Below, piece after piece: positions 28,209-54,818 of a DNA stretch of 64,000 nt. Each line of letters begins with the position of its first letter. Position 1 is the stretch's first letter. The position numbers and the translations under genes are program-made. Below the pieces are notes generated by a model that saw only the letters and a list, made by a program, of their open reading frames with translations, was not told the origin of the DNA and searched no databases. Source of the stretch: Eledone cirrhosa (Eukaryota); contig OZ024743.1 of assembly GCA_964016885.1 (NCBI GenBank), forward strand, positions 204,662,001 to 204,726,000, written 5' to 3'.

Positions 28209-29457
<1,249 letters not shown>

Positions 29458-32400
29458 AAACACCATTAAAAACTCCATTGAAAAGCTCATAAAAACTCAT
29501 TAAAAACCCAATAAAAAGCACACTAAACCACCATTAAAAGCTACATCCGAAACCCATTAAAAACTATATTAAAACACCATTAAAATTCCATTAAAAACCA
29601 CATTAAAATCCATTAAAAATCCAATTAAAAACAGTAAAAACTTAATTGTAAACGTAATCGAAAGCGCAAGTAAAACAACAATAAAACCATTTAACACCCC
29701 ATTAAAACCCACAAAAATACCACCAGAACCCATTAAAATCCCATAACCGCCATTAAAATTCCATTAAAAATATTATAAAAAACTTCATTTAAAACACACT
29801 GGAAACCCATTAAACTTCATAAAAAAATCCATTAAAAAAAATCCATTAAAAAAAATCCATTAAAAAAAAATCCATTAAAAAAATCCATTAAAAAAATCCG
29901 TTAAAAAAAATCCATTAAAACTCAATCAAAACCCAATTAAAAGGCCATAAAAGAAACATTAAAACACCATTTAAAAAACCCATTAAAAAACCATTTAAAA
30001 AAATCCATTTAAAAATCCATTAAAAAAATCCATTAAAAATCCATAAAAATCCATAAAAAATCCATTAAAAATCCATTAAAAATCCATTAAAAATCCATTA
30101 AAAAATCCATTTAAAAAAATCCATTAAAAAAATCCATTAAAAAAATCCATTTAAAAAATCCATTAAAAAAATCCATTAAAAAAAATCCATTAAAAAAAAT
30201 CCATTAAAAAAAATCCATTAAAAAAAAATCCGTTAAAAAAAATCCATTAAAAACTCAATCAAAAACCCAATTAAAAGGCCATAAAAGAAACATTAAAACA
30301 GCATTTAAAATACCATTAAAAACGCCATAAAAAACATTAAAATCCCATTAAAAATACATTAAAGGCCCATTAAAAATTCCACTAAAAACCTCATTGAAAA
30401 CCCCATTTAAAACCTAATTAGAAGCTCATAAAAACTCCCAAAACCCAATAAAAAACCATTAAAACGTCATTAAAACGTCATAAAACGCTATTAAAACGTC
30501 ATTAAAAATGTTATTAAAAACTCCATTGATAACTCAATTAAAAACTGCATTTTACCCCCCTCCTCCCCCATTAAAAACACATTAAACACTCCATTAAAAT
30601 TACCATTAAAAACCAATTAAATACTCCATTAAACACTATATTAAAACCGCAATTATAAATTCTTTAAAAATCCAATTAAAAAACATATTATAAACTCCAT
30701 TAAAAATCCAATTAAAAACCCTACTGAAAATCCCATTATAAAATTACATAAAAACCCATAATAATAGTCCTTTAAAAAACCAATTAAAAATCCTATTAAA
30801 ACGCCATAAAAAACACCATTAAAACGTCATTAAAAATACAATTAAAAACACCATTAAAACTACATTGCAAATTCCATTAAAAGACCCATTAAAAACTCCA
30901 TTAAAAACACCACTAAAAAGCCCATTAAAAAGCTCATAAAACCCATTAAAATACAATCAATAACCAATTAACACTCCATTAAAAACCATTACAACCGTCA
31001 TTAAAATGCCATAAAATACCATTAAAACGCCATTAAGAACGCCATTAAAATCGTCATTAAAAACCTCATTAAAAACTACATTAAAACTTCATTAAAATCT
31101 CCATTAAAACCTCCATTATAAACTCTATTAAACTCCATTAAAACTCAATTAAATCCCCCATTAAACCCCCATTAAGCCCCATTAAAAGCCCCTGAAAAAT
31201 GCAACTAAAAACCAATTTTAAAACCCCATTAAAACACAATTAAAAGTCCATTGGAAACCCCATTAAAATTCCATTAAAAATTCATTAAAAACTTAGTAAA
31301 AACTCGATTTTATACTCAATTAAAAAGGTAATTGAAAACTCAATTAGCACACCATTAAAAACTCATTAAAAAGCCCATAAAAACTCCATAAAAAATCTAA
31401 TTGAAAAACATTAAAAATTCAGTTAAAAACCTGATTGAAAACCCCAATAAAAGTTCATTAAAAAAACTCCATTAAAAAATCAATCAAAACCCCATTAAAA
31501 TAACATTGAAACTTATCGAAGCGTCATTAAGGATACCATTAAAAAACACCATTAAAACGGCATTGAAAACCCATTATAAAAAATTAAAGGGTCCGTAAAA
31601 AACACCATTATAAATCCATTAAAAACCTAATTGAAAAACCCATTAAAACTCAATTTTTAAACTAGATTAAAAACGCAATTAAAAGCTCAATGAAAAACCA
31701 TTAAAAACACCATTAAAAACTCTTTAAAAAAGAGCACTAGCCATTAAAACTCCATTAAAACCCATTGAAACCTACTACCCCCATTAAACCCCATTAAAAT
31801 TGCATTAAACACATTACACATCCATTAAAGCCCATTAGAAGGACCATCAAATATTTAAATTTAAACTAAATCAGAAACTCGCTTAAAACACCATTAAAAA
31901 CACATTAAAATGTCACTAATACCATTAACAACCACACAAAAAACTCCATTAATATACCATTAAAAACCGCATTGAAAACCCATAAAATCCCAAGTAAAGA
32001 TCTTTTAAAAAACTACATTAAAAACCCAATTAAAAAACCCATTAAAACGCCATAAAAGTCATTAAAACGTCATTTAAAGTACCATTAAAAACGTCACTAG
32101 AAACCCAATTAAAAACACATTAAAAATTCCATTTGAAACCATATTAAAAATTTCATTAAATGCAATATTGAAAAACCCATTAAAAACACCAGTGAAAACT
32201 CATATAAATACTCAATTAAAAAACCAATTAAAAATCCTATTTAAACGTCACTAAAACACCATAAAAAACACAATTAAAACGTCATTAAAACACCATTAAA
32301 AATTCAATTAAAACCCCATTAAAAATCCATTAAAAAGATCATCATGAACGCACTTAAACACCATCAAAAACGCATTAAAAATTAAATTAAAAAGCAATTA

Positions 32401-34771
32401 ATTTTTTTTATCAAACCCCCATTAAAATTCCATTAAAAACAACATTGAAAACCCCCATTAAAAGCTCATACAAAATTATATTAAAAACCCAATAAAAAAC
32501 AATTACAACGCCATTAAAACATCATAAAAACTCATTAAAATGTCATTTAAAATGCCATTAAAACCCTCACGGGGGAAACGCAATTAAAAACACCATTAGA
32601 AATTTCATTAAAAACTCCATTAAAAATCATATTTAAAGTCAATTAGAACCCTTATTATAAATTCCATTAAAACCCATTAAGTATCCAATTGAAAAATCCA
32701 TTAAGAGCTCATTAAAAATACTCCATTAAAAACCCAATTAAAAATCATTAAAACGCATTTAAACACCATAAAAACACAATTAAAACGCCATTAAAAACTC
32801 CATTAAAACATCCTTGAATCTATTAAAAATTTCATTAAAAACGCAATCAAAAATTCCATTAAAAACCCATTTAAAAACTCATAAACAACACCATTGAAAA
32901 CCCAATTAAAAACTCCATAAAAAACCCATTAAACACCATCGAAAATCCCATTAAAACACCATTAAAAAGCCATTAAAACCCAATTTTAAACGCAATTAAA
33001 AACTGAATTAAAACACTATTAAAAACTCATAAAAAAAGGCTCATAAATAATGGGGTTTTCAATTGTTTTTTATGAAATTTATAATATGGCTTTTAATGAA
33101 CTTTTTAATGGGCTTTTAGTGGAGTTTTTAATGGATTTTTATGGAATTTTTAATGACATTATTAATGGTTTTTTAATTGGGCTTTTTGTGATGTTTTAAT
33201 GGCGTTTTTATGACATTTTATTGTGTTTTGTGGCGTTTTAATGGCGTTTTAATTGGTTTGTTATTGGGTTTTTAATAGAGTTTTATGAACTTTTAATATG
33301 GGGTTAATGGGTTTTGAATGTGTTTTCAATGGAACTTTTAATTGAGTTTTTAATGAAATTTCTAATGGGATGTGTAATTGAATTTTTAATTGGTTTTTAA
33401 TGGGTTTAGTGGGTTTATAGTGGAGTTTTTAATGGTGTTTTAATGGTGCTTCGATTGAGTTTTTAATTGAGTTTTTAATTGAGTTTTTACTGAGTTTTTA
33501 ATTGAGTTCTTATTTTATTTTATTTTATTTATTTTTTATATTTAATTTTTTTTTATTTTTTTTTATTTTATTTTATTTTTATTTATTTTATTTTATTTTA
33601 TTTTATTTTATTTATTTTATTTTATTTTATTTATATTTTTTAGTTTTTTTTATTTTATTTTATTTTATTTTTTTTATTTTATTTTATTTTATTTTATTTT
33701 ATTTTTTTTATTTTATTTTATTTTATTTTTTATTTTATTTTATTTTATTTTATTTTATTTTATTTTATTTTATTTTATTTTATTTTATTTTATTTTATTT
33801 TATTTTATTTTATTTTATTTTATTGAGTTTTTAATTTAGTTTATAATTTAGTTTATAACTTAGTTTATAATTTAGTTTATTTCTCCCTCTTCTCCCCCTA
33901 CTGTCCTCTACAGCCAGATCTGCCTTTCTTTACCCCTCCCAAGTCTCTTCCCTCTTCTCCCCCTACTGTCCTCTACAGCCTGATCTGCCTTTCTTTACCC
34001 CTCCCTAGTCTCTTCATTATTCAGTTTTGTTTTTATCTTTCTAAAACATCCTAGTTTTAATGAAATTAAAAGGAAATAGCAATCGCTATAAGTGTGCAAG
34101 CCAGCATGTAACTTCATGTGTGTGTGTTTTTAATGGAGTTTTTAATTGAGTTTTAATGGAGTTTTAATTGAGTTTATAATGGAGATTTAAATGGAATTTT
34201 TAATTGAGTTTTAATGTAGTTTTAATGGTGTTTTATGCCGTTTTAATGGTATTTTAATGGGGTTTTTATTTGGTTTTTTATAAAGTTTTGGGTGCGCTTT
34301 TAATGGGGGTTTAATGGGTTTTCAGTGTAGTTTTTAATGACATTTTTAATGGTTTTCCAATGGAACCTTAGTGGTGTGTTAATGCAATTTTAATTGGTTT
34401 AATGGGCTTTTAATTGTGTTTTTAATGGTGTTTTAATTGAGTTTTTAATTGCGTTTTAATTGAGTTTTTATTTCGGTTTAAATTTGAGGTTTTAATGTCT
34501 TTTCGAGGGGGGGTTAATGGGGGTTTTAATGGAGTTTTAATGGGGACTTTTAATGGAAACTTTAATTTTGTTTTAATTGGGTTTTTATGGGTTTCCAATG
34601 TGGTTTTTAATGGCGCTTTTATTGGCATTCTTAATGATGTTTTAATTGTGTTTTAATGGGGGGTTTGGTTGGGGTTTTAATGGAGTGTTTTATGAGCTTA
34701 TAATGGGGTTTTTAATGGGTTTTTCAAAATAGATTTTTAATTGAATTTTTAATGTGGTTTTTAATGGGATT

Positions 34772-34772
<1 letters not shown>
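29458..34772. repeat. Foldback-like module of unit 1: ~3.6-kb degenerate CCATTAAAA arm, polarity switch at ~33047, then TTTTAATGG arm interrupted by (ATTTT)n and a unique spacer
   Basis: Left end (TA)n-AAAcaCCATTAAAAAC; the reverse complement of the right end reads (TA)n-AAAtcCCATTAAAAAC. The same layout is in every unit. Confidence 0.85.
33511..34015. repeat. (ATTTT)n tract, ~4 x 12-bp TTTAGTTTATAA, and 2 x 65-bp pyrimidine-rich direct repeat (present in each unit)
   Basis: ccctcttctccccctactgtcctctacagcc(a/t)gatctgcctttctttacccctccc(a/t)agtctcttc starts at 33885 and 33950. Confidence 0.9.
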
Positions 34773-34822
<50 letters not shown>

Positions 34823-34883
34823 GTGTGTGTGTATATATATATATATATAGTGTGTATGTATATATATATATATAGTGTGTGCG

Positions 34884-34913
<30 letters not shown>

Positions 34914-34915
<2 letters not shown>

Positions 34916-35303
34916 ACACAAATATTAGCATATACATATTTTCTTAGTAATTGAGGATGTGTTTTTTATACATACATATGCATATTGCATCCATACATAC
35001 ACACATACAAGCATATACATACACATACACACAAATATATATACACACACTGTATATATATACATACACACACACACATATATATATATACACCACACAC
35101 TATATATATATATAGTGTGTGTGTGTATATATATATGTGTGTGTGTGTGTATGTATATATATATATACAGTGTGTGTATATATGTGTGTGTGTATGTCTA
35201 TGTATATGCTTGTATGTGTGTATGTATGTATGTATGCAATATGCATATATAAAAACACATCCTCAATGACTAAGAAATTATGTATATGCTAATATGTGTG
35301 TTA
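34914..35303. repeat. ~390-bp imperfect palindrome: unique outer arms, (CA)-rich / (TG)-rich inner arms, (TA)n centre (present in each unit)
   Basis: taacacaaatattagcatatacat...ttcttagt.attgaggatgtgttttt...atgcatattgcat pairs with atgcaatatgcat...aaaaacacatcctcaat.actaagaa...atgtatatgctaatat.tgtgtta. The centre is cacacac-tatatatatatata-gtgtgtg. Confidence 0.9.
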
Positions 35304-35499
35304 GTGTCTATATAAATGTATGTATGTAGTATATGCAAGTGTTCGTGCAAATTGAAAATAGATTTAATAATTTTAATATCTAGAACAATGTGATCTAAAA
35401 AAAATATTTTTTAAGATACGAATATATCGTTGTCAGCTTAATATGGCACTAACGCAAAATATAAATCCCAGTTTATATATAGTGTGTAACATGAAAGTG

Positions 35500-35534
<35 letters not shown>

Positions 35535-35640
35535 ATATATATATATATATATATATATTTAATATATATATATATATATATATATATTTAATATATATAT
35601 ATATATATATATATTTAATATATATATATATATATATATA

Positions 35641-35677
<37 letters not shown>

Positions 35678-35678
35678 A

Positions 35679-35716
<38 letters not shown>

Positions 35717-38700
35717 ATACACATATATATGTGTAAATATATATATACACATATATATGTGTAAATATATATATACACATATATATATACACATATATAT
35801 GTGTAAATATATATATATACATATATATGTATGTATGTATATATATATATATAAACACCATTAAAAACTCCATTGAAAAGCTCATAAAAACTCATTAAAA
35901 ACCCAATAAAAAGCACACTAAACCACCATTAAAAGCTACATCCGAAACCCATTAAAAACTATATTAAAACACCATTAAAATTCCATTAAAAACCACATTA
36001 AAATCCATTAAAAATCCAATTAAAAACAGTAAAAACTTAATTGTAAACGTAATCGAAAGCGCAAGTAAAACAACATTAAAACCATTTAACACCCCATTAA
36101 AACCCACAAAAATACCACCAGAACCCATTAAAATCCCATAACCGCCATTAAAATTCCATTAAAAATATTATAAAAAACTTCATTTAAAACACGCTGGAAA
36201 CCCATTAAACTTCATAAAAAAATCCATTAAAAAAAAATCCATTAAAAAAATCCATTAAAAAAAAATCCATTAAAAAAATCCATTTAAAAAAATACGTTAA
36301 AAAAAATCCATTAAAACTCAATCAAAAACCCAATTAAAAGGCCATAAAAGAAACATTAAAACACCATTTAAAAAACCCATTAAAAAACCATTAAAAAAAA
36401 TCCATTTAAAAAATCCATTAAAAAAATCCATTAAAAATCCATAAAAATCCATTAAAAATCCATTAAAAATCCATTAAAAATCCATTAAAAATCCATTTAA
36501 AAAAATCCATTAAAAAAATCCATTAAAAAAATCCATTAAAAAAAATCCATTTAAAAAATCCATTAAAAAAATCCATTAAAAAAAATCCATTAAAAAAAAT
36601 CCATTAAAAAAAATCCATTAAAAAAAAATCCGTTAAAAAAAATCCATTAAAAACTCAATCAAAAACCCAATTAAAAGGCCATAAAAGAAACATTAAAACA
36701 GCATTTAAAATACCATTAAAAACGCCATAAAAAACATTAAAATCCCATTAAAAATACATTAAAGGCCCATTAAAAATTCCACTAAAAACCTCATTGAAAA
36801 CCCCATTTAAAACCTAATTAGAAGCTCATAAAAACTCCCAAAACCCAATAAAAAACCATTAAAACGTCATTAAAACGTCATAAAACGCTATTAAAACGTC
36901 ATTAAAAATGTCATTAAAAACTCCATTGATAACTCAATTAAAAACTGCATTTTACCCCCCTCCTCCCCCATTAAAAACACATTAAACACTCCATTAAAAT
37001 TACCATTAAAAACCAATTAAATACTCCATTAAACACTATATTAAAACCGCAATTATAAATTCTTTAAAAATCCAATTAAAAAACATATTATAAACTCCAT
37101 TAAAAATCCAATTAAAAACCCTACTGAAAATCCCATTATAAAATTACATAAAAACCCATAATAATAGTCCTTTAAAAAACCAATTAAAAATCCTATTAAA
37201 ACGCCATAAAAAACACCATTAAAACGTCATTAAAAATACAATTAAAAACACCATTAAAAACTACATTGCAAATTCCATTAAAAGACCCGTTAAAAACTCC
37301 ATTAAAAACACCACTAAAAAGCCCATTAAAAAGCTCATAAAACCCATTAAAATACAATCAATAACCAATTAACACTCCATTAAAAACCATTACAACCGTC
37401 ATTAAAATGCCATAAAATACCATTAATACGCCATTAAGAACGCCATTAAAATCGTCATTAAAAACCTCATTAAAAACTACATTAAAACTTCATTAAAATC
37501 TCCATTAAAACCTCCATTATAAACTCTATTAAACTCCATTAAAACTCAATTAAATCCCCCATTAAACCCCCATTAAGCCCCATTAAAAGCCCCTGAAAAA
37601 TGCAACTAAAAACCAATTTTAAAACCCCATTAAAACACAATTAAAAGTCCATTGGAAACCCCATTAAAATTCCATTAAAAATTCATTAAAAACTTAGTAA
37701 AAACTCGATTTTATACTCAATTAAAAAGGTAATTGAAAACTCAATTAGCACACCATTAAAAACTCATTAAAAAGCCCATAAAAACTCCATAAAAAATCTA
37801 ATTGAAAAACATTAAAAATTCAGTTAAAAACCTGATTGAAAACCCCAATAAAAGTTCATTAAAAAAACTCCATTAAAAAATCAATCAAAACCCCATTAAA
37901 ATAACATTGAAACTTATCGAAGCGTCATTAAGGATACCATTAAAAAACACCATTAAAACGGCATTGAAAACCCATTATAAAAAATTAAAGGGTCCGTAAA
38001 AAACACCATTATAAATCCATTAAAAACCTAATTGAAAAACCCATTAAAACTCAATTTTTAAACTAGATTAAAAACGCAATTAAAAGCTCAATGAAAAACC
38101 ATTAAAAACACCATTAAAAACTCTTTAAAAAAGAGCACTAGCCATTAAAACTCCATTAAAACCCATTGAAACCTACTACCCCCATTAAACCCCATTAAAA
38201 TTGCATTAAACACATTACACATCCATTAAAGCCCATTAGAAGGACCATCAAATATTTAAATTTAAACTAAATCAGAAACTCGCTTAAAACACCATTAAAA
38301 ACACATTAAAATGTCACTAATACCATTAACAACCACACAAAAAACTCCATTAATATACCATTAAAAACCGCATTGAAAACCCATAAAATCCCAAGTAAAG
38401 ATCTTTTAAAAAACTACATTAAAAACCCAATTAAAAAACCCATTAAAACGCCATAAAAGTCATTAAAACGTCATTTAAAGTACCATTAAAAACGTCACTA
38501 GAAACCCAATTAAAAACACATTAAAAATTCCATTTGAAACCATATTAAAAATTTCATTAAATGCAATATTGAAAAACCCATTAAAAACACCAGTGAAAAC
38601 TCATATAAATACTCAATTAAAAAACCAATTAAAAATCCTATTTAAACGTCACTAAAACACCATAAAAAACACAATTAAAACGTCATTAAAACACCATTAA

Positions 38701-41173
38701 AAATTCAATTAAAACCCCATTAAAAATCCATTAAAAAGATCATCATGAACGCACTTAAACACCATCAAAAACGCATTAAAAATTAAATTAAAAAGCAATT
38801 AATTTTTTTTATCAAACCCCCATTAAAATTCCATTAAAAACAACATTGAAAACCCCCATTAAAAGCTCATACAAAATTATATTAAAAACCCAATAAAAAA
38901 CAATTACAACGCCATTAAAACATCATAAAAACTCATTAAAATGTCATTTAAAATGCCATTAAAACCCTCACGGGGGGAAACGCAATTAAAAACACCATTA
39001 GAAATTTCATTAAAAACTCCATTAAAAATCATATTTAAAGTCAATTAGAACCCTTATTATAAATTCCATTAAAACCCATTAAGTATCCAATTGAAAAATC
39101 CATTAAGAGCTCATTAAAAATACTCCATTAAAAACCCAATTAAAAATCATTAAAACGCATTTAAACACCATAAAAACACAATTAAAACGCCATTAAAAAC
39201 TCCATTAAAACATCCTTGAATCTATTAAAAATTTCATTAAAAACGCAATCAAAAATTCCATTAAAAACCCATTTAAAAACTCATAAACAACACCATTGAA
39301 AACCCAATTAAAAACTCCATAAAAAACCCATTAAACACCATCGAAAATCCCATTAAAACACCATTAAAAAGCCATTAAAACCCAATTTTAAACGCAATTA
39401 AAAACTGAATTAAAACACTATTAAAAACTCATAAAAAAAGGCTCATAAATAATGGGGTTTTCAATTGTTTTTTATGAAATTTATAATATGCCTTTTAATG
39501 AACTTTTTAATGGGCTTTTAGTGGAGTTTTTAATGGATTTTTATGGAATTTTTAATGACATTATTAATGGTTTTTTAATTGGGCTTTTTGTGATGTTTTA
39601 ATGGCGTTTTTATGACATTTTATTGTGTTTTGTGGCGTTTTAATGGCGTTTTAATTGGTTTGTTATTGGGTTTTTAATAGAGTTTTATGAACTTTTAATA
39701 TGGGGTTAATGGGTTTTGAATGTGTTTTCAATGGAACTTTTAATTGAGTTTTTAATGAAATTTCTAATGGGATGTGTAATTGAATTTTTAATTGGTTTTT
39801 AATGGGTTTAGTGGGTTTATAGTGGAGTTTTTAATGGTGTTTTAATGGTGCTTCGATTGAGTTTTTAATTGAGTTTTTAATTGAGTTTTTACTGAGTTTT
39901 TAATTGAGTTCTTATTTTATTTTATTTTATTTATTTTTTATATTTAATTTTTTTTTATTTTTTTTTATTTTATTTTATTTTTATTTATTTTATTTTATTT
40001 TATTTTATTTTATTTATTTTATTTTATTTTATTTATATTTTTTAGTTTTTTTTATTTTATTTTATTTTATTTTTTTTATTTTATTTTATTTTATTTTATT
40101 TTATTTTTTTTATTTTATTTTATTTTATTTTTTATTTTATTTTATTTTATTTTATTTTATTTTATTTTATTTTATTTTATTTTATTTTATTTTATTTTAT
40201 TTTATTTTATTTTATTTTATTTTATTGAGTTTTTAATTTAGTTTATAATTTAGTTTATAACTTAGTTTATAATTTAGTTTATTTCTCCCTCTTCTCCCCC
40301 TACTGTCCTCTACAGCCAGATCTGCCTTTCTTTACCCCTCCCAAGTCTCTTCCCTCTTCTCCCCCTACTGTCCTCTACAGCCTGATCTGCCTTTCTTTAC
40401 CCCTCCCTAGTCTCTTCATTATTCAGTTTTGTTTTTATCTTTCTAAAACATCCTAGTTTTAATGAAATTAAAAGGAAATAGCAATCGCTATAAGTGTGCA
40501 AGCCAGCATGTAACTTCATGTGTGTGTGTTTTTAATGGAGTTTTTAATTGAGTTTTAATGGAGTTTTAATTGAGTTTATAATGGAGATTTAAATGGAATT
40601 TTTAATTGAGTTTTAATGTAGTTTTAATGGTGTTTTATGCCGTTTTAATGGTATTTTAATGGGGTTTTTATTTGGTTTTTTATAAAGTTTTGGGTGCGCT
40701 TTTAATGGGGGTTTAATGGGTTTTCAGTGTAGTTTTTAATGACATTTTTAATGGTTTTCCAATGGAACCTTAGTGGTGTGTTAATGCAATTTTAATTGGT
40801 TTAATGGGCTTTTAATTGTGTTTTTAATGGTGTTTTAATTGAGTTTTTAATTGCGTTTTAATTGAGTTTTTATTTCGGTTTAAATTTGAGGTTTTAATGT
40901 CTTTTCGAGGGGGGGTTAATGGGGGTTTTAATGGAGTTTTAATGGGGACTTTTAATGGAAACTTTAATTTTGTTTTAATTGGGTTTTTATGGGTTTCCAA
41001 TGTGGTTTTTAATGGCGCTTTTATTGGCATTCTTAATGATGTTTTAATTGTGTTTTAATGGGGGGTTTGGTTGGGGTTTTAATGGAGTGTTTTATGAGCT
41101 TATAATGGGGTTTTTAATGGGTTTTTCAAAATAGATTTTTAATTGAATTTTTAATGTGGTTTTTAATGGGATT

Positions 41174-41224
<51 letters not shown>

Positions 41225-41285
41225 GTGTGTGTGTATATATATATATATATAGTGTGTATGTATATATATATATATAGTGTGTGCG

Positions 41286-41317
<32 letters not shown>

Positions 41318-41895
41318 ACACAAATATTAGCATATACATATTTTCTTAGTAATTGAGGATGTGTTTTTTATACATACATATGCATATTGCATCCATACAT
41401 ACACACATACAAGCATATACATACACATACACACAAATATATATACACACACTGTATATATATACATACACACACACACATATATATATATACACCACAC
41501 ACTATATATATATATAGTGTGTGTGTGTATATATATATGTGTGTGTATGTATATATATATATACAGTGTGTGTATATATGTGTGTGTGTATGTCTATGTA
41601 TATGCTTGTATGTGTGTATGTATGTATGTATGCAATATGCATATATAAAAACACATCCTCAATGACTAAGAAATTATGTATATGCTAATATGTGTGTTAG
41701 TGTCTATATAAATGTATGTATGTAGTATATGCAAGTGTTCGTGCAAATTGAAAATAGATTTAATAATTTTAATATCTAGAACAATGTGATCTAAAAAAAA
41801 TATTTTTTAAGATACGAATATATCGTTGTCAGCTTAATATGGCACTAACGCAAAATATAAATCCCAGTTTATATATAGTGTGTAACATGAAAGTG

Positions 41896-41936
<41 letters not shown>

Positions 41937-42042
41937 ATATATATATATATATATATATATTTAATATATATATATATATATATATATATTTAATATATAT
42001 ATATATATATATATATTTAATATATATATATATATATATATA

Positions 42043-42079
<37 letters not shown>

Positions 42080-42080
42080 A

Positions 42081-42118
<38 letters not shown>

Positions 42119-45100
42119 ATACACATATATATGTGTAAATATATATATACACATATATATGTGTAAATATATATATACACATATATATATACACATATAT
42201 ATGTGTAAATATATATATATACATATATATGTATGTATGTATATATATATATATAAACACCATTAAAAACTCCATTGAAAAGCTCATAAAAACTCATTAA
42301 AAACCCAATAAAAAGCACACTAAACCACCATTAAAAGCTACATCCGAAACCCATTAAAAACTATATTAAAACACCATTAAAATTCCATTAAAAACCACAT
42401 TAAAATCCATTAAAAATCCAATTAAAAACAGTAAAAACTTAATTGTAAACGTAATCGAAAGCGCAAGTAAAACAACATTAAAACCATTTAACACCCCATT
42501 AAAACCCACAAAAATACCACCAGAACCCATTAAAATCCCATAACCGCCATTAAAATTCCATTAAAAATATTATAAAAAACTTCATTTAAAACACGCTGGA
42601 AACCCATTAAACTTCATAAAAAAATCCATTAAAAAAAAATCCATTAAAAAAATCCATTAAAAAAAAATCCATTAAAAAAATCCATTTAAAAAAATACGTT
42701 AAAAAAAATCCATTAAAACTCAATCAAAAACCCAATTAAAAGGCCATAAAAGAAACATTAAAACACCATTTAAAAAACCCATTAAAAAACCATTAAAAAA
42801 AATCCATTTAAAAAATCCATTAAAAAAATCCATTAAAAATCCATAAAAATCCATTAAAAATCCATTAAAAATCCATTAAAAATCCATTAAAAATCCATTT
42901 AAAAAAATCCATTAAAAAAATCCATTAAAAAAATCCATTAAAAAAAATCCATTTAAAAAATCCATTAAAAAAATCCATTAAAAAAAATCCATTAAAAAAA
43001 ATCCATTAAAAAAAATCCATTAAAAAAAATCCGTTAAAAAAAATCCATTAAAAACTCAATCAAAAACCCAATTAAAAGGCCATAAAAGAAACATTAAAAC
43101 AGCATTTAAAATACCATTAAAAACGCCATAAAAAACATTAAAATCCCATTAAAAATACATTAAAGGCCCATTAAAAATTCCACTAAAAACCTCATTGAAA
43201 ACCCCATTTAAAACCTAATTAGAAGCTCATAAAAACTCCCAAAACCCAATAAAAAACCATTAAAACGTCATTAAAACGTCATAAAACGCTATTAAAACGT
43301 CATTAAAAATGTCATTAAAAACTCCATTGATAACTCAATTAAAAACTGCATTTTACCCCCCTCCTCCCCCATTAAAAACACATTAAACACTCCATTAAAA
43401 TTACCATTAAAAACCAATTAAATACTCCATTAAACACTATATTAAAACCGCAATTATAAATTCTTTAAAAATCCAATTAAAAAACATATTATAAACTCCA
43501 TTAAAAATCCAATTAAAAACCCTACTGAAAATCCCATTATAAAATTACATAAAAACCCATAATAATAGTCCTTTAAAAAACCAATTAAAAATCCTATTAA
43601 AACGCCATAAAAAACACCATTAAAACGTCATTAAAAATACAATTAAAAACACCATTAAAAACTACATTGCAAATTCCATTAAAAGACCCGTTAAAAACTC
43701 CATTAAAAACACCACTAAAAAGCCCATTAAAAAGCTCATAAAACCCATTAAAATACAATCAATAACCAATTAACACTCCATTAAAAACCATTACAACCGT
43801 CATTAAAATGCCATAAAATACCATTAATACGCCATTAAGAACGCCATTAAAATCGTCATTAAAAACTACATTAAAACTTCATTAAAATCTCCATTAAAAC
43901 CTCCATTATAAACTCTATTAAACTCCATTAAAACTCAATTAAATCCCCCATTAAACCCCCATTAAGCCCCATTAAAAGCCCCTGAAAAATGCAACTAAAA
44001 ACCAATTTTAAAACCCCATTAAAACACAATTAAAAGTCCATTGGAAACCCCATTAAAATTCCATTAAAAATTCATTAAAAACTTAGTAAAAACTCGATTT
44101 TATACTCAATTAAAAAGGTAATTGAAAACTCAATTAGCACACCATTAAAAACTCATTAAAAAGCCCATAAAAACTCCATAAAAAATCTAATTGAAAAACA
44201 TTAAAAATTCAGTTAAAAACCTGATTGAAAACCCCAATAAAAGTTCATTAAAAAAACTCCATTAAAAAATCAATCAAAACCCCATTAAAATAACATTGAA
44301 ACTTATCGAAGCGTCATTAAGGATACCATTAAAAAACACCATTAAAACGGCATTGAAAACCCATTATAAAAAATTAAAGGGTCCGTAAAAAACACCATTA
44401 TAAATCCATTAAAAACCTAATTGAAAAACCCATTAAAACTCAATTTTTAAACTAGATTAAAAACGCAATTAAAAGCTCAATGAAAAACCATTAAAAACAC
44501 CATTAAAAACTCTTTAAAAAAGAGCACTAGCCATTAAAACTCCATTAAAACCCATTGAAACCTACTACCCCCATTAAACCCCATTAAAATTGCATTAAAC
44601 ACATTACACATCCATTAAAGCCCATTAGAAGGACCATCAAATATTTAAATTTAAACTAAATCAGAAACTCGCTTAAAACACCATTAAAAACACATTAAAA
44701 TGTCACTAATACCATTAACAACCACACAAAAAACTCCATTAATATACCATTAAAAACCGCATTGAAAACCCATAAAATCCCAAGTAAAGATCTTTTAAAA
44801 AACTACATTAAAAACCCAATTAAAAAACCCATTAAAACGCCATAAAAGTCATTAAAACGTCATTTAAAGTACCATTAAAAACGTCACTAGAAACCCAATT
44901 AAAAACACATTAAAAATTCCATTTGAAACCATATTAAAAATTTCATTAAATGCAATATTGAAAAACCCATTAAAAACACCAGTGAAAACTCATATAAATA
45001 CTCAATTAAAAAACCAATTAAAAATCCTATTTAAACGTCACTAAAACACCATAAAAAACACAATTAAAACGTCATAAAAACACCATTAAACTATCATTAA

Positions 45101-47597
45101 AAATTACATTGAAAACACCATTAAAAAGTCAATTAAAACCCCATTAAAAATCCATTAAAAAGATCATCATGAACGCACTTAAACACCATCAAAAACGCAT
45201 TAAAAATTAAATTAAAAAGCAATTAATTTTTTTTATCAAACCCCCATTAAAATTCCATTAAACACTCCATTAAAAACAACATTGTAAACCCCCATTAAAA
45301 GCTCATACAAAATTATATTAAAAGCCCAATAAAAAACAATTACAACGCCATTAAAACATCATAAAAACTCATTAAAATGTCATTTAAAATGCCATTAAAA
45401 CCCTCACGGGGGGAAACGCAATTAAAAACACCATTAGAAATTTCATTAAAAACTCCATTAAAAATCATATTTAAAGTCAATTAGAACCCTTATTATAAAT
45501 TCCATTAAAACCCATTAAGTATCCAATTGAAAAATCCATTAAGAGCTCATTAAAAATACTCCATTAAAAACCCAATTAAAAATCATTAAAACGCATTTAA
45601 ACACCATAAAAACACAATTAAAACGCCATTAAAAACTCCATTAAAACATCCTTGAATCTATTAAAAATTTCATTAAAAACGCAATCAAAAATTCCATTAA
45701 AAACCCATTTAAAAACTCATAAACAACACCATTGAAAACCCAATTAAAAACTCCATCAAAAACCCATTAAACGCCATCGAAAATCCCATTAAAACACCAT
45801 TAAAAAGCCATTAAAACCCAATTTTAAACGCAATTAAAAACTGAATTAAAACACTATTAAAAACTCATAAAAAAAGGCTCATAAATAATGGGGTTTTCAA
45901 TTGTTTTTTATGAAATTTATAATATGGCTTTTAATGAACTTTTTAATGGGCTTTTAGTGGAGTTTTTAATGGATTTTTATGGAATTTTTAATGACATTAT
46001 TAATGGTTTTTTAATTGGGCTTTTTGTGATGTTTTAATGGCGTTTTTATGACATTTTATTGTGTTTTGTGGCGTTTTAATGGCGTTTTAATTGGTTTGTT
46101 ATTGGGTTTTTAATAGAGTTTTATGAACTTTTAATATGGGGTTAATGGGTTTTGAATGTGTTTTCAATGGAACTTTTAATTGAGTTTTTAATGAAATTTC
46201 TAATGGGATGTGTAATTGAATTTTTAATTGGTTTTTAATGGGTTTAGTGGGTTTATAGTGGAGTTTTTAATGGTGTTTTAATGGTGCTTCGATTGAGTTT
46301 TTAATTGAGTTTTTAATTGAGTTTTTACTGAGTTTTTAATTGAGTTCTTATTTTATTTTATTTTATTTATTTTTTATATTTAATTTTTTTTTTTTTTTTA
46401 TTTTATTTTATTTTTATTTATTTTATTTTATTTTATTTTATTTATTTTATTTTATTTTATTTATATTTTTTAGTTTTTTTTATTTTATTTTATTTTATTT
46501 TTTTTATTTTATTTTATTTTATTTTATTTTATTTTATTTTATTTTATTTTATTTTATTTTATTTTTTATTTTATTTTATTTTATTTTATTTTATTTTATT
46601 TTATTTTATTTTATTTTATTTTATTTTATTTTATTTTATTTTATTTTATTGAGTTTTAATTTAGTTTATAATTTAGTTTATAACTTAGTTTATAATTTAG
46701 TTTATTTCTCCCTCTTCTCCCCCTACTGTCCTCTACAGCCAGATCTGCCTTTCTTTACCCCTCCCAAGTCTCTTCCCTCTTCTCCCCCTACTGTCCTCTA
46801 CAGCCTGATCTGCCTTTCTTTACCCCTCCCTAGTCTCTTCATTATTCAGTTTTGTTTTTATCTTTCTAAAACATCCTAGTTTTAATGAAATTAAAAGGAA
46901 ATACAATCGCTATAAGTGTGCAAGCCAGCATGTAACTTCATGTGTGTGTGTTTTTAATGGAGTTTTTAATTGAGTTTTAATGGAGTTTTAATTGAGTTTA
47001 TAATGGAGATTTAAATGGAATTTTTAATTGAGTTTTAATGTAGTTTTAATGGTGTTTTATGCCGTTTTAATGGTATTTTAATGGGGTTTTTATTTGGTTT
47101 TTTATAAAGTTTTGGGTGCGCTTTTAATGGGGGTTTAATGGGTTTTCAGTGTAGTTTTTAATGACATTTTTAATGGTTTTCCAATGGAACCTTAGTGGTG
47201 TGTTAATGCAATTTTAATTGGTTTAATGGGCTTTTAATTGTGTTTTTAATGGTGTTTTAATTGAGTTTTTAATTGCGTTTTAATTGAGTTTTTATTTCGG
47301 TTTAAATTTGAGGTTTTAATGTCTTTTCGAGGGGGGGGGTTAATGGGGGTTTTAATGGAGTTTTAATGGGGACTTTTAATGGAAACTTTAATTTTGTTTT
47401 AATTGGGTTTTTATGGGTTTCCAATGTGGTTTTTAATGGCGCTTTTATTGGCATTCTTAATGATGTTTTAATTGTGTTTTAATGGGGGGTTTGGTTGGGG
47501 TTTTAATGGAGTGTTTTATGAGCTTATAATGGGGTTTTTAATGGGTTTTTCAAAATAGATTTTTAATTGAATTTTTAATGTGGTTTTTAATGGGATT

Positions 47598-47631
<34 letters not shown>

Positions 47632-47705
47632 TAATATATAGTGTGTGTGTATATATATATATATATAGTGTGTATGTATATATATATATATATATAGTGT
47701 GTGCG

Positions 47706-47737
<32 letters not shown>

Positions 47738-48323
47738 ACACAAATATTAGCATATACATATTTTCTTAGTAATTGAGGATGTGTTTTTTATACATACATA
47801 TGCATATTGCATCCATACATACACACATACAAGCATATACATACACATACACACACATATATATACACACACTGTATATATATACATACACACACATATA
47901 TATATATACACCACACACTATATATATATATAGTGTGTGTGTGTATATATATATGTGTGTGTGTGTGTATGTATATATATATATACAGTGTGTGTATATA
48001 TGTGTGTGTGTATGTCTATGTATATGCTTGTATGTGTGTATGTATGTATGTATGTATGCAATATGCATATATAAAAACACATCCTCAATGACTAAGAAAT
48101 TATGTATATGCTAATATTTGTGTTAGTGTCTATATAAATGTATGTATGTAGTATATGCAAGTGTTCGTGCAAATTGAAAATAGATTTAATAATTTTAATA
48201 TCTAGAACAATGTGATCTAAAAAAAATATTTTTTAAGATACGAATATATCGTTGTCAGCTTAATATGGCACTAACGCAAAATATAAATCCCAGTTTATAT
48301 ATAGTGTGTAACATGAAAGTGGA

Positions 48324-48362
<39 letters not shown>

Positions 48363-48385
48363 ATATATATATATATATATATATA

Positions 48386-48422
<37 letters not shown>

Positions 48423-48635
48423 ATATATATATATATATATATATATATTTAATATATATATATATATATATATATTTAATATATATATATATATATATAT
48501 TTAATATATATATATATATATATATATTTAATATATATATATATATATATTTAATATATATATATATATATATATTTAATATATATATATATATATATAT
48601 ATTTAATATATATATATATATATATATATATTTAA

Positions 48636-48673
<38 letters not shown>

Positions 48674-51600
48674 ATACACATATATATGTGTAAATATATA
48701 TATACACATATATATGTGTAAATATATATATACACATATATATATACACATATATATGTGTAAATATATATATATACATATATATGTATGTATGTATATA
48801 TATATATATAAACACCATTAAAAACTCCATTGAAAAGCTCATAAAAACTCATTAAAAACCCAATAAAAAGCACACTAAACCACCATTAAAAGCTACATCC
48901 GAAACCCATTAAAAACTATATTAAAACACCATTAAAATTCCATTAAAAACCACATTAAAATCCATTAAAAATCCAATTAAAAACAGTAAAAACTTAATTG
49001 TAAACGTAATCGAAAGCGCAAGTAAAACAACATTAAAACCATTTAACACCCCATTAAAACCCACAAAAATACCACCAGAACCCATTAAAATCCCATAACC
49101 GCCATTAAAATGCCATTAAAAATATTATCAAAAACTTCATTTAAAACACACTGGAAACCCATTAAACTTCATAATTCTCGTTAAAAAAAATCCATTAAAA
49201 ACTCAATCAAAAACCCAATTAAAAGGCCATAAAAGAAACATTAAAACAGCATTTAAAATACCATTAAAAACGCCATAAAAAACATTAAAATCCCATTAAA
49301 AATACATTAAAGGCCCATTAAAAATTCCACTAAAAACCTCATTGAAAACCCCATTTAAAACCTAATTAGAAGCTCATAAAAACTCCCAAAACCCAATAAA
49401 AAAACCATTAAAACGTCATTAAAACGTCATAAAACGCTATTAAAACGTCATTAAAAATGTCATTAAAAACTCCATTGATAACTCAATTAAAAACTGCATT
49501 TTACCCCCCTCCTCCCCCATTAAAAACACATTAAACACTCCATTAAAATTACCATTAAAAACCAATTAAATACTCCATTAAACACTATATTAAAACCGCA
49601 ATTATAAATTCTTTAAAAATCCAATTAAAAACCATATTATAAACTCCATTAAAAATCCAATTAAAAACCCTACTGAAAATCCCATTATAAAATTACATAA
49701 AAAACCCATAATAATAGTCCTTTAAAAAAGCAATTAAAAATCCTATTAAAACGCCATAAAAAACACCATTAAAACGTCATTAAAAATACAATTGAAAACA
49801 CCATTAAAAACTACATTGCAAATTCCATTAAAAGACCCATTAAAAACTCCATTAAAAGCACCACTAAAAAGTCCATTAAAAAGCTCATAAAACCCATTAA
49901 AATACAATTAATAACCAATTAACACTCCATTAAAAACCATTACAACAGTCATTAAAATGCCATAAAATACCATTAAAACGCCATTAAGAACGCCATTAAA
50001 ATCGTCATTAAAAACCTCATTAAAAACTACATTAAAACTTCATTAAAAACTCCATTAAAACCTCCATTATAAACTCTATTAAACTCCATTAAAAACTCAA
50101 TTAAATCCCCCATTAAACCCCCATTAAGCCCCATTAAAAGCCCCTGAAAATGCAACTAAAAACCAATTTTAAAACCCCATTAAAACACAATTAAAAGTCC
50201 ATTGGAAACCCCATTAAAATTCCATTAAAAATTCATTAAAAACTTAGTAAAAACTCGATTTTATACTCAATTAAAAAGGTAATTGAAAACTCAATTAGCA
50301 CACCATTAAAAACTCATTAAAAAGCCCATAAAAACTCCATAAAAAATCTAATTGAAAAACATTAAAAATTCAGTTAAAAACCTGATTGAAAACCCCAATA
50401 AAAGTTCATTAAAAAAACTCCATTAAAAAATCAATCAAAACCCCATTAAAATAACATTGAAACTTATCGAAGCGTCATTAAGGATACCATTAAAAAACAC
50501 CATTAAAACGGCATTGAAAACCCATTATAAAAAATTAAAGGGTCCGTAAAAAACACCATTATAAATCCATTAAAAACCTAATTGAAAAACCCATTAAAAC
50601 TCAATTTTTAAACTAGATTAAAAACGCAATTAAAAACGCAATTAAAAGCTCAATGAAAAACCATTAAAAACACCATTAAAAACTCTAAAAAAAAAAAGCA
50701 CTAGCCATTAAAACTCCATTAAAACCCATTGAAACCTACTACCCCCATTAAACCCCATTAAAATTGCATTAAACACATTACACATCCATTAAAGCCCATT
50801 AGAAGGACCATCAAATATTTAAATTTAAACTAAATCAGAAACTCGCTTAAAACACCATTAAAAACACATTAAAATGTCACTAATACCATTAACAACCACA
50901 CCAAAAACTCCATTAATATACCATTAAAAACCGCATTGAAAACCCATAAAATCCCAAGTAAAGATCTTTTAAAAAACTACATTAAAAACCCAATTAAAAA
51001 ACCCATTAAAACGCCATAAAAGTCATTAAAACGTCATTTAAAGTACCATTAAAAACGTCACTAGAAACCCAATTAAAAATACATTAAAAATTCCATTTGA
51101 AACCATATTAAAAATTTCATTAAATGCAATATTGAAAAACCCATTAAAAACACCAGTGAAAACTCATATAAATACTCAATTAAAAAACCAATTAAAAATC
51201 CTATTTAAACGTCACTAAAACACCATAAAAAACACAATTAAAACGTCATAAAAACACCATTAAACTATCATTAAAAATTACATTGAAAACACCATTAAAA
51301 AGTCAATTAAAACCCCATTAAAAATCCATTAAAAAGATCATCATGAACGCACTTAAACACCATCAAAAACGCATTAAAAATTAAATTAAAAAGCAATTAA
51401 TTTTTTTATCAAACCCCCATTAAAATTCCATTAAACACTCCATTAAAAACAACATTGAAAACCCCCATTAAAAGCTCATACAAAATTATATTAAAAACCC
51501 AATAAAAAACAATTACAACGCCATTAAAACATCATAAAAACTCATTAAAATGTCATTTAAAATGCCATTAAAACCCTCACGGGGGGAAACGCAATTAAAA

Positions 51601-53833
51601 ACACCATTAGAAATTTCATTAAAAACTCCATTAAAAATCATATTTAAAGTCAATTAGAACCCTTATTATAAATTCCATTAAAACCCATTAAGTATCCAAT
51701 TGAAAAATCCATTAAGAGCTCATTAAAAATACTCCATTAAAAACCCAATTAAAAATCATTAAAACGCATTTAAACACCATAAAAACACAATTAAAACGCC
51801 ATTAAAAAGACCATTAAAAACTCCATTAAAACATCCTTGAATCTATTAAAAATTTCATTAAAAACGCAATCAAAAATTCCATTAAAAACCCATTTAAAAC
51901 TCATAAACAACACCATTGAAAACCCAATTAAAAACTCCATAAAAAACCCATTAAACACCATCGAAAATCACATTAAAATTCCATTAAAACACCATTAAAA
52001 AGCCATTAAAACCCAATTTTAAACGCAATTAAAAACTGAATTAAAACACTATTAAAAACTCATAAAAAAGGCTCATAAATAATGGGGTTTTCAATTGTTT
52101 TTTATGAAATTTATAATATGGCTTTTAATGAACTTTTTAATGGGCTTTTAGTGGAGTTTTTAATGGATTTTTATGGAATTTTTAATGACATTATTAATGG
52201 TTTTTTAATTGGGCTTTTTGTGATGTTTTAATGGCGTTTTTATGACATTTTATTGTGTTTTGTGGCGTTTTAATGGCGTTTTAATTGGTTTGTTATTGGG
52301 TTTTTAATAGAGTTTTATGAACTTTTAATATGGGGTTAATGGGTTTTGAATGTGTTTTCAATGGAACTTTTAATTGAGTTTTTAATGAAATTTCTAATGG
52401 GATGTGTAATTGAATTTTTAATTGGTTTTTAATGGGTTTAGTGGGTTTATAGTGGAGTTTTTAATGGTGTTTTAATGGTGCTTCGATTGAGTTTTTAATT
52501 GAGTTTTTAATTGAGTTTTTACTGAGTTTTTAATTGAGTTCTTATTTTATTTTATTTTATTTATTTTTTATATTTAATTTTTTTTTATTTTTTTTTATTT
52601 TATTTTATTTTTATTTATTTTATTTTATTTTATTTTATTTTATTTTATTTATTTTATTTTATTTTATTTATATTTTTTAGTTTTTTTTATTTTATTTTAT
52701 TTTATTTTTTTTATTTTATTTTATATTATTTTATTTTATTTTATTTTATTTTATTTTATTTTATTTTATTTTTTATTTTATTTTATTTTATTTTATTTTA
52801 TTTTATTTTATTTTATTTTATTTTATTTTATTTTATTTTATTTTATTGTATTTTATTTTATTTTATTTTATTTTATTTTATTGAGTTTTTAATTTAGTTT
52901 ATAATTTAGTTTATAACTTAGTTTATAATTTAGTTTATTTCTCCCTCTTCTCCCCCTACTGTCCTCTACAGCCAGATCTGCCTTTCTTTACCCCTCCCAA
53001 GTCTCTTCCCTCTTCTCCCCCTACTGTCCTCTACAGCCTGATCTGCCTTTCTTTACCCCTCCCTAGTCTCTTCATTATTCAGTTTTGTTTTTATCTTTCT
53101 AAAACATCCTAGTTTTAATGAAATTAAAAGGAAATAGCAATCGCTATAAGTGTGCAAGCCAGCATGTAACTTCATGTGTGTGTGTTTTTAATGGAGTTTT
53201 TAATTGAGTTTTAATGGAGTTTTAATTGAGTTTATAATGGAGATTTAAATGGAATTTTTAATTGAGTTTTAATGTAGTTTTAATGGTGTTTTATGCCGTT
53301 TTAATGGTATTTTAATGGGGTTTTTATTTGGTTTTTTATAAAGTTTTGGGTGCGCTTTTAATAGGGGTTTAATGGGTTTTCAGTGTAGTTTTTAATGACA
53401 TTTTTAATGGTTTTCCAATGGAACCTTAGTGGTGTGTTAATGCAATTTTAATTGGTTTAATGGGCTTTTAATTGTGTTTTTAATGGTGTTTTAATTGAGT
53501 TTTTAATTGCGTTTTTATTGAGTTTTTATTTCGGTTTAAATTTGAGGTTTTAATGTCTTTTCGAGGGGGGGGGGGTTAATGGGGGTTTTAATGGAGTTTT
53601 AATGGGGACTTTTAATGGAAACTTTAATTTTGTTTTAATTGGGTTTTTATGGGTTTCCAATGTGGTTTTTAATGGCGGTTTTATTGGCATTCTTAATGAT
53701 GTTTTAATTGTGTTTTAATGGGGGGTTTGGTTGGGGTTTTAATGGAGTGTTTTATGAGCTTATAATGGGGTTTTTAATGGGTTTTTCAAAATAGATTTTT
53801 AATTGAATTTTGAATGTGGTTTTTAATGGGATT

Positions 53834-53867
<34 letters not shown>

Positions 53868-53939
53868 TAATATATAGTGTGTGTGTATATATATATATAT
53901 AGTGTGTATGTATATATATATATATATATAGTGTGTGCG

Positions 53940-53971
<32 letters not shown>

Positions 53972-54564: not shown

Positions 54565-54611
<47 letters not shown>

Positions 54612-54740
54612 ATATATATATATATATATATTTAATATATATATATATATATATATATATTTAATATATATATATATATATATATATTTAATATATATAT
54701 ATATATATATATATTTAATATATATATATATATATATATA

Positions 54741-54777
<37 letters not shown>

Positions 54778-54778
54778 A

Positions 54779-54818
<40 letters not shown>

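What the first reader, a model, noticed from the sequence alone, without database searches (positions are those of the whole stretch)
29458..34772. Foldback-like element made of opposed CCATTAAAA satellite arms, inserted in (TA)n and amplified as a 6.4-kb macrosatellite
Seen: each unit has a ~3.6-kb C-rich arm of degenerate 9-12-bp CCATTAAAA monomers that flips polarity at ~33047 into TTTTAATGG monomers. The two ends are near-inverted (AAA..CCATTAAAAAC) and both abut (TA)n. Known: modular inverted arms of short tandem repeats define Foldback-type transposons (Drosophila FB, sea urchin TU). Inference: this may be an undescribed non-autonomous foldback family that targets TA repeats and seeds large satellite arrays. 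The monomers are highly diverged while the 6-kb units are near-identical, so two amplification events occurred far apart in time.
Basis: partly seen in the sequence, partly recalled or inferred. Interest (0 to 1): 0.72.

Follow-up and report, generated by a model that had tools for sequence, protein, structure and literature searches.

The report
Macrosatellite that seeded megabase daughter satellites
This is a 6-kb non-coding tandem repeat with about 134 near-identical copies, not a family of jumping genes; it likely arose from one old inversion, likely spread by recombination through neighbouring satellite DNA, and likely gave rise to a 0.7-megabase simple satellite on another chromosome that still carries pieces of both its arms.

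Summary
The opposed arms, flip and TA-rich flanks are real, but this is not a Foldback transposon. The repeated unit is the whole 6.1-6.5 kb, spacer included: 134 core hits, 132 placed in eight sites (seven tandem arrays, one partial unit), none as a whole dispersed copy. The arm ends are no more alike than any two monomer stretches. Of 16 array ends, 11 break inside the supposed element and 5 in the TA tract; none at its right end. A 6-bp inverted word brackets the right arm, suggesting one microhomology inversion. Arrays abut five other satellites through 1-5-bp microhomologies, and identical junctions recur two or three times with co-copied flank, the hitchhiking pattern described in Drosophila and Tribolium. 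The element that really targets (TA)n here is a separate Penelope-like retroelement inserted in the array. New variant of a known kind; interest 0.4.

The parts
28209..29084 (.). Host TA/TG-rich tract; the 377-kb array begins where it switches to the unit-type tract (about 29085-29105)
   Evidence: Interruption pattern differs from the internal tracts up to about 29085, then matches
29085..29457 (+). Unit-type TA tract with TTTAA and CACA interruptions; part of the repeated unit; 5 of 16 array ends lie in this tract type
29458..33042 (+). Left arm: old degenerate 11-12-bp CCATTAAAA minisatellite. Array ends at other loci fall at the equivalents of about 30233, 31535, 32594 (three loci) and 32968
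29820..30253 (+). Homogeneous 12-13-bp AAAAAATCCATT tract, present in a minority of units; same repeat as the large arrays on C2 (about 0.42 Mb) and C3 (0.7-0.8 Mb)
30233..30376 (+). Left-arm piece that recurs every 1-3 kb in the C3 daughter satellite at 96-99% identity
33043..33048 (+). Polarity flip; word ATAAAT, inverted partner of ATTTAT at 34769-34774 (likely inversion breakpoint)
   Evidence: 6-bp match, p about 0.025 post hoc; same flip in 51 of 52 occurrences, the other with a 2-base change
33049..33509 (-). Inner right arm (monomers inverted); 33061-33119 is copied as an insert into the C3 cassettes
33510..33880 (.). (TTTTA)n run and five 12-bp repeats; the large array flips strand at this run at C4:204932420
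33884..34125 (+). Two 65-bp copies and a 110-bp unique core, used as copy marker; the 7-bp satellite joins at about 33910 at three loci
34126..34774 (-). Outer right arm ending in ATTTAT (34769-34774); the 25-bp satellite joins at about 34286 at two loci
34772..35501 (+). Spacer carried in every array, with a ~390-bp near-perfect hairpin (34914-35304)
35502..35852 (+). Internal TA tract between units; the 227-bp satellite joins at about 35759 at two loci; Penelope-like insertions land in this tract further along the array
35853..64000 (+). Units 2-6 (starts 35853, 42255, 48810, 54955, 61506); the array runs on to C4:205068487 with a central strand flip

Best explanation
It is a young, non-coding composite macrosatellite of about 134 near-identical 6.1-6.5-kb units, whose opposed arms likely come from one old microhomology-mediated inversion, which likely spread by recombination rather than transposition, and which likely seeded much larger simple satellites. 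Steps: (1) Shown: an old 11-12-bp minisatellite block with one fixed flip. Inferred: the 1.7-kb right arm was inverted once between 6-bp inverted words at the flip and at the satellite/TA border. (2) Shown: the block plus spacer plus TA tract is the tandem unit. Inferred: first duplicated by crossover between flanking TA tracts, then amplified by unequal exchange or replication-based copying. (3) Shown: arrays abut five other satellites at 1-5-bp microhomologies, and four junctions recur at 2-3 loci, three of them with near-identical flank. Inferred: each junction formed once by end joining or template switching and was then copied with its neighbours by ectopic recombination, gene conversion, break-induced replication or circles, giving hybrids such as 7-mer/array/25-mer. 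(4) Shown: the C3 12-13-bp satellite carries cassettes made of both arms. Inferred: it grew out of one unit. No function is shown; neutral heterochromatic turnover is the default.
For: Copy markers: 127 exact, 134 and 135 at three mismatches; 132 units placed in eight sites. The end pattern gives 263 hits, about two per unit, none on C1, and the one non-array hit among the 100 listed is not a satellite. Terminal alignment scores fall inside the monomer null at six window sizes, fraction 0.19-0.61. Array ends: 11 of 16 internal, 5 in the TA tract, 0 at the right end. Junction counts genome-wide: arm to 25-mer 3, 7-mer to core 3, tract to 227-mer 2; 25-mer to right arm seen twice. The 7-mer flanks mostly differ by 0-11 substitutions per 500 bp over 6 kb (a few bins up to 24) against 39-75 in controls. 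Divergence within arrays 0.75%, between arrays 0.65%, 61 copies. Short-read contigs: unit depth 456.9, junction contig 10.2, ratio 45, as 134/3 predicts. Inverted 6-bp word p about 0.025. C3: 35 left-arm and 32 right-arm pieces in 64 kb sampled; 434 forward hits of the left-arm word genome-wide. Precedent: PMC7403614 passages, PMC13081366 passages and Discussion part 1.
Against: The uninverted ancestor was not found (0 hits); the 6-bp test is post hoc with two alternatives tried. No array ends in the original downstream flank, so the birth locus is not identified. Up to 3 reverse-strand core hits were not placed, and the pattern searches would miss copies diverged beyond about 10%. Three neighbouring boundaries are 200-N scaffold gaps, so chromosome placement of some blocks depends on scaffolding. 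The junction contig has 51+29 letters, two short of the tool's bridging rule, and comes from the same sample label as the best holder. A direct 25-mer/7-mer junction without this unit also recurs three times, so the unit is one passenger in a mobile mosaic, not a special adaptor. The inner right arm resembles left-arm 2379-2835 of the reference unit more than shuffles do (305 vs 253, 0 of 60), which an old fold-back copy would explain as well as an inversion of an old higher-order repeat.
Confidence: 0.72

Rival explanations
1. The 5.3-kb block is the relic of a Foldback/Mutator-type transposon that inserted once in (TA)n; the family died out and one copy was later amplified as a macrosatellite.
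For: Opposed arms of short repeats around a middle piece; both ends start in monomer phase next to TA. Tetris shows that foldback elements can supply satellite building blocks (PMC4079207 passages). A target duplication would be invisible in (TA)n.
Against: No terminal identity above the monomer null; no dispersed relatives by end pattern, triple-monomer pattern (2 small loci on C1, neither with arms) or core words at three mismatches; longest stop-free frame 125 low-complexity residues. The monomer's only TA step makes phase-matched TA joins likely without a transposase (inference).
Confidence: 0.1
2. The block is a satellite transcript copied into a (TA)n site from both target strands by the Penelope-like retroelement active in this genome.
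For: A young Penelope-like family here sits next to different (TA)n flanks in 21 of 25 loci, makes tandem and inverted insertions and has hit this array three times. PLEs show inverted structures, microsatellite bias and trans-mobilisation (PMC8557442 passages). Priming by the TA end would leave the same short overlap seen at 33043 and 34769.
Against: The inverted halves of Penelope-like insertions here are 99.5-100% copies of the same template end; these arms are not in register (outer right arm vs left arm p=0.17). No dispersed copies. No ribozyme match in Rfam, only TA-repeat artefacts below gathering scores.
Confidence: 0.08
3. The array is real but the recurring junctions and hybrid blocks are assembly artefacts (uncollapsed haplotypes, mis-joins across the array, Hi-C misplacement).
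For: Arrays exceed usual read length; scaffold gaps lie nearby; C469 is a small unplaced contig and may be an alternative haplotype of the C2:245.06 end.
Against: Three copies cannot be two haplotypes; the copies differ by substitutions and indels; three 7-mer entries face one 7-mer exit among the ends found, so some hybrid must exist however the middles were joined; depth ratio 45 matches three junction copies.
Confidence: 0.07

Closest known systems
Drosophila simulans/mauritiana Rsp-like satellite spreading through 1.688 clusters (PMC7403614; passages read)
   Same: Rare microhomology junctions between unrelated satellites, the same junction reused at several loci, flank moved with it, spread by gene conversion or circles proposed.
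   Different: There, short euchromatic clusters and two satellites on one chromosome; here a 6-kb composite unit, 36-377-kb arrays, five partner satellites in megabase domains on several scaffolds, and a traceable daughter satellite.
Tribolium madens macro-dyad satellites TmSat1/TmSat2 (PMC13081366; passages and Discussion part 1 of 2 read)
   Same: Conserved inversion sites copied with the array, conserved transition zones between satellites, no contig-specific clustering of variants, large array-level inversions.
   Different: There, thousands of transitions between two related (peri)centromeric satellites; here 2-3 copies per junction, unrelated partners, asymmetric arms alike only at monomer level, centromere link untested.
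Foldback-structured transposons: Tetris, FB, TU, Galileo (PMC4079207; passages read; FB and TU details recalled)
   Same: Opposed arms with internal tandem repeats around a non-coding middle; internal repeats that expand into a new satellite.
   Different: No true terminal inverted repeats, no visible 8-10-bp target duplication, no dispersed copies; the moving unit includes the spacer and breaks at internal points.
Macrosatellites such as DXZ4, D4Z4, RNU2 (search listing and abstract starts only)
   Same: Kilobase units in head-to-tail arrays of high identity at a few loci.
   Different: AT-rich, built from nested simple repeats, no gene or ORF; embedded in other satellites.

Membership tests
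Foldback-type DNA transposon | Opposed arms built of short tandem subrepeats around a middle domain | tested here: met
Foldback-type DNA transposon | Long terminal inverted repeats with position-wise identity from the ends | tested here: not met
   Terminal scores inside the monomer null at 20-500 bp; best inverted local hits 66-73%
Foldback-type DNA transposon | 8-10-bp target site duplication | tested here: inconclusive
   Both flanks are (TA)n; no empty site available
Foldback-type DNA transposon | Dispersed copies with conserved ends in different flanks | tested here: not met
   132 of about 134 copies placed in arrays or one partial unit; 0 of 16 array ends at the right end; strongly diverged copies not excluded
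Foldback-type DNA transposon | Autonomous partner with a transposase and the same ends | tested here: inconclusive
   No ORF in the unit; the two large insertions examined are Penelope-like; no genome-wide transposase search was run
Macrosatellite | Multi-kilobase unit in head-to-tail arrays | tested here: met
   Seven arrays of 6-57 units
Macrosatellite | High unit-to-unit identity (recent amplification or concerted evolution) | tested here: met
   0.75% within, 0.65% between arrays over 1.4 kb of 61 copies
Macrosatellite | Array confirmed outside the assembly | tested here: inconclusive
   Short-read contig depth 423-496 against about 6-8 for low-copy contigs; no long reads laid
Penelope-mobilised passenger | Both ends in (TA)n | tested here: met
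   but the same inherited tracts in the units read
Penelope-mobilised passenger | Inverted half is a copy of the same template end | tested here: not met
   contrast 99.5-100% in the real insertions
Penelope-mobilised passenger | Dispersed insertions in different (TA)n flanks | tested here: not met
   contrast 21 of 25 for the retroelement
Tribolium-type intermingled macro-dyad satellites | [quoted passage not shown] | tested here: met
   Flip identical in 51 of 52; junctions repeated 2-3 times
Tribolium-type intermingled macro-dyad satellites | (Peri)centromeric position | not testable with these tools
   Arrays lie in mid-scaffold satellite domains; no CENH3 or FISH data

The most novel reading that the evidence does not exclude
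The unit is a satellite nursery caught in the act: an old inverted minisatellite block became a macrosatellite, spawned more than a megabase of new 12-13-bp satellite on two chromosomes, and travels between chromosomes inside a mosaic of at least five satellites whose rare junctions are exchanged as blocks, so these mid-chromosome domains (one beside telomere-like repeats) recombine with each other across chromosomes.
Probability: 0.45. Interest if true: 0.6.

Novelty: new variant of a known kind. Interest (0 to 1): 0.4.

Why it matters
The birth of a simple satellite can rarely be traced, because short monomers keep no record of their source. Here the C3 array keeps a tag made of both arms, which points to the parent and gives a graded series: unit without tract, unit with a 430-bp tract, border zone with repeated arm pieces, tagged megabase array, untagged array. 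The counted, reused junctions also give markers for testing exchange between satellite domains of different chromosomes with long reads. The mechanisms themselves are already described in flies and beetles, and no function is shown.

Tried and rejected
Terminal inverted repeats: tested on two units against monomer-phased nulls, none. Dispersed family: end pattern, triple-monomer patterns and core/spacer words at three mismatches gave only array copies, the daughter satellite and three unrelated or small loci. I first took the sequence following the spacer at C4:204.761 Mb for the host flank and birth site; a search showed it is a dispersed retroelement end, so that reading was dropped. Its protein had no Pfam match at E 0.001; the Penelope-like call rests on atlas neighbours with RVT_1 and GIY-YIG and on motifs read by eye. 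Single-crossover integration of a circle predicts complementary first and last partial units; none of the five sites bounded by satellites on both sides without a tract-derived end (C2:250.5, C4:140.0, 142.4, 205.4, C469) fits. Special adaptor role: weakened by the direct 25-mer/7-mer junction, also in three copies. Array-specific variants: none. Uninverted ancestor: 0 hits. Rfam: only sub-threshold microRNA matches on TA repeats. Expression: no RNA holder listed. Run X5 (organism B) holds 271 bp at 100% and depth about 4, with the 25-mer in roughly the same proportion as in X1, so carry-over is as likely as a relative; not used. The junction was not seen in raw reads of another individual, which are reduced-representation and thin there. 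Literature: searches listed no description of this repeat; subscription papers and preprint supplements were not searchable.
Full report
Setting. The window is G000:C4:204662001-204726000 of a 3.0-Gb animal assembly. Other agents' notes call it a likely octopus relative; I did not test that. Below, 'the unit' is the 6-kb repeat, and partner satellites are named by monomer length (7, 9, 12-13, 25 and 227 bp).

Observation. The anatomy is as described: a left arm of degenerate 11-12-bp monomers (29458-33042), a flip at 33043-33048, then inverted monomers interrupted by (TTTTA)n, 12-bp and 65-bp repeats and a 110-bp core, ending at 34771 in TA. Six units start in the window, and units 1-3 are 99.6-99.8% identical.

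Copy number and places. A 37-bp core word has 127 exact hits. Core and spacer words at three mismatches give 134 and 135. Combining the lists places 132 units: C2:245.06-245.16 Mb (16), C2:248.28-248.34 (8), C2:250.50-250.70 (31), C4:140.04-140.07 (6), C4:142.44-142.48 (6), this array C4:204.69-205.07 (38 forward, then 19 reversed after a flip at 204932420), C4:205.42-205.46 (7) and one partial unit on C469. Up to three reverse-strand hits stay unplaced. Short-read contigs of run X1 cover the unit at depth 423-496 against 6-8 for low-copy contigs; the tool warns that depth is not a copy number, but the order of magnitude agrees. Reads of other individuals match the arms.

It is not a Foldback family. 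Aligning the left end with the reverse complement of the right end scores inside the distribution for arbitrary monomer-phased windows at all six lengths from 20 to 500 bp (fraction of null at or above 0.19-0.61; same result on a second unit at five lengths). The pattern (TA)5-AAA-N1-3-CCATTAAAAA has 263 hits, about two per unit; of the 100 listed, 99 are array copies and one is not a satellite. The TA flanks carry the same interruptions in the units read, so they are inherited, not fresh targets. Of 16 array ends, 11 break inside the 5.3-kb block, 5 lie in the TA tract before the left arm and none is at the right end. Tetris, by contrast, has true TIRs and 8-10-bp target duplications (PMC4079207, passages).

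Origin of the opposed arms (inferred). The word ATAAAT at the flip (33043-33048) is the reverse complement of ATTTAT at the right end (34769-34774). Turning the 1.72 kb between them round would restore one monomer direction. A match this long arose in 2.5% of 20,000 simulated independent junction pairs; the test is post hoc, and the left end as partner gave only 3 bp. The uninverted form is absent from the assembly. The flip is identical in 51 of 52 occurrences in non-overlapping loci, so it happened once and was inherited. Against a clean story, the inner right arm resembles one left-arm stretch more than shuffles do, which fits either an old higher-order repeat or an old fold-back copy.

How it spread. 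Twelve of the 16 ends abut another satellite. The joints read show 1-5 shared bases (read by eye), and the array's own strand flip uses TAAAA. Identical joints recur: arm to 25-mer at three loci, 7-mer to core at three, TA tract to 227-mer at two, 25-mer to right arm at two. Flank came along: the three 7-mer flanks mostly differ by 0-11 substitutions per 500 bp over 6 kb, with a few bins up to 24, against 39-75 for unrelated stretches; the 25-mer flanks agree for 0.5-2 kb; the 227-mer is too uniform to tell. The blocks read 7/unit/7, 25/unit/25 and, twice, 7/unit/25, as crossover within the unit would give. Variants are shared across arrays, 0.75% within and 0.65% between (61 copies). A short-read contig crosses the arm-to-25-mer joint at depth 10.2 against 456.9 for the arm, a ratio of 45 as 134/3 predicts, though with 29 letters on one side it misses the tool's 31-letter rule. 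This is the pattern reported for Rsp-like and 1.688 (PMC7403614, passages) and for conserved transitions in Tribolium madens (PMC13081366). A direct 25-mer/7-mer joint also occurs three times with matching flanks, so the whole mosaic moves this way. Three boundaries nearby are scaffold gaps, which limits claims about chromosomes.

Role of TA. Four of ten distinct end types fall in a tract that is 7% of the unit (binomial about 0.004 by hand; about 0.02 for three of nine if the end beside a retroelement is dropped), at four different positions. That suits crossover or repair at a self-complementary, break-prone repeat (PMC12972899, abstract start only) better than a fixed transposase cut. The real TA-targeting element here is separate: a 6.4-kb family with an 803-830-residue frame, atlas neighbours carrying RVT_1 and GIY-YIG (no Pfam hit), preceded by different (TA)n flanks in 21 of 25 loci, with tandem and inverted copies typical of Penelope-like elements (PMC8557442, passages). 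It has inserted three times in this array's TA tracts.

It seeded larger satellites. The homogeneous 12-13-bp tract seen in window units (29820-30253) also forms about 0.42 Mb beside the C2:245.16 array, with three arm islands near the border, and 0.7-0.8 Mb on C3 from 167.989 Mb. The C3 array carries left-arm 30233-30376 at 96-99% identity every 1-3 kb, mostly with right-arm 33061-33119 inserted in it, in the orientation it has in the unit: 35 left and 32 right pieces in 64 kb sampled. The left-arm word has 434 forward hits genome-wide, about 65 of them expected in forward units, leaving roughly 370 (only 40 C3 positions were listed). A cassette that joins two parts 2.8 kb apart in the unit, in the post-inversion orientation, is most simply derived from the unit. 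Whether the tract itself began in the arm or entered it by conversion is not settled; the untagged C2 array is linked only by adjacency and the border islands.

Verdict. A real, well-resolved composite macrosatellite; not a member of the Foldback group, though it looks like one and, like Tetris, has fed a new satellite. Each mechanism has precedent. The unusual part is the legible genealogy and the countable shared junctions. No function, expression or centromere link is shown. Novelty: new variant of a known kind; interest 0.4.

Noticed in passing
L129:541-2952 (G000:C1:125.84 Mb), L103-L127, L131, L132, L134-L137: Young dispersed Penelope-like family (6.4 kb, intact 803-830-aa frames, endonuclease motifs at the C-terminus by eye) with its end next to (TA)n in 21 of 25 loci; tandem and inverted copies; at least 40 near-identical ends.
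   Followed up: partly
L061:2020-6433; L058:4744 to L059:4039; L050:5487: Three insertions of that family in the unit's TA tract, with 600-bp (100%) and 4.3-kb (99.5%) inverted halves.
   Followed up: yes
window 34914-35304: Near-perfect ~390-bp DNA hairpin in the spacer (predicted -165 kcal/mol), copied in every unit.
   Followed up: partly
G000:C2:244.5-251.6 Mb, C3:167.6-169.0 Mb, C4:139-143.4 and 205.36-206.8 Mb (L164-L203, L251-L270): Megabase mosaics of 7-, 9-, 12-13-, 21-, 25-, 37- and 227-bp satellites in mid-scaffold, with strand switches; candidates for pericentromeric or fusion-site heterochromatin.
   Followed up: partly
L181 (G000:C2:251200001-251203000): Degenerate (TAACCC)n array (79% match) inside a 416-Mb scaffold next to the mosaic; possible old chromosome-fusion site.
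   Followed up: no
L247, L248, L249: Direct 25-mer/7-mer junction through a 5-bp shared word, present three times on C2 and C4 with near-identical 7-mer flanks.
   Followed up: yes
L083 (G000:C1:111.81 Mb): Solitary ~320-bp patch of the 12-13-bp satellite in ordinary DNA, followed by (TATG)n.
   Followed up: no
window 33884-34015: The 65-bp duplicated piece has many diverged relatives in short-read contigs (summed depth 7380), so it probably comes from a common dispersed repeat.
   Followed up: no
window 21913-24256 and 7355-8840: Decayed retroelement pieces: 7355-8840 is 78-80% like the young Penelope-like family; 21913-24256 looks Penelope-like by eye and lies between TA tracts.
   Followed up: no
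window 27393-27796: Nested inverted repeats (252 bp at 95%, 83 bp at 92%) just upstream of the array.
   Followed up: no
run X4 on L205:1200-1800: The 25-bp satellite is about 30-fold more abundant relative to the unit than in run X1; the run's kind is not on record.
   Followed up: no
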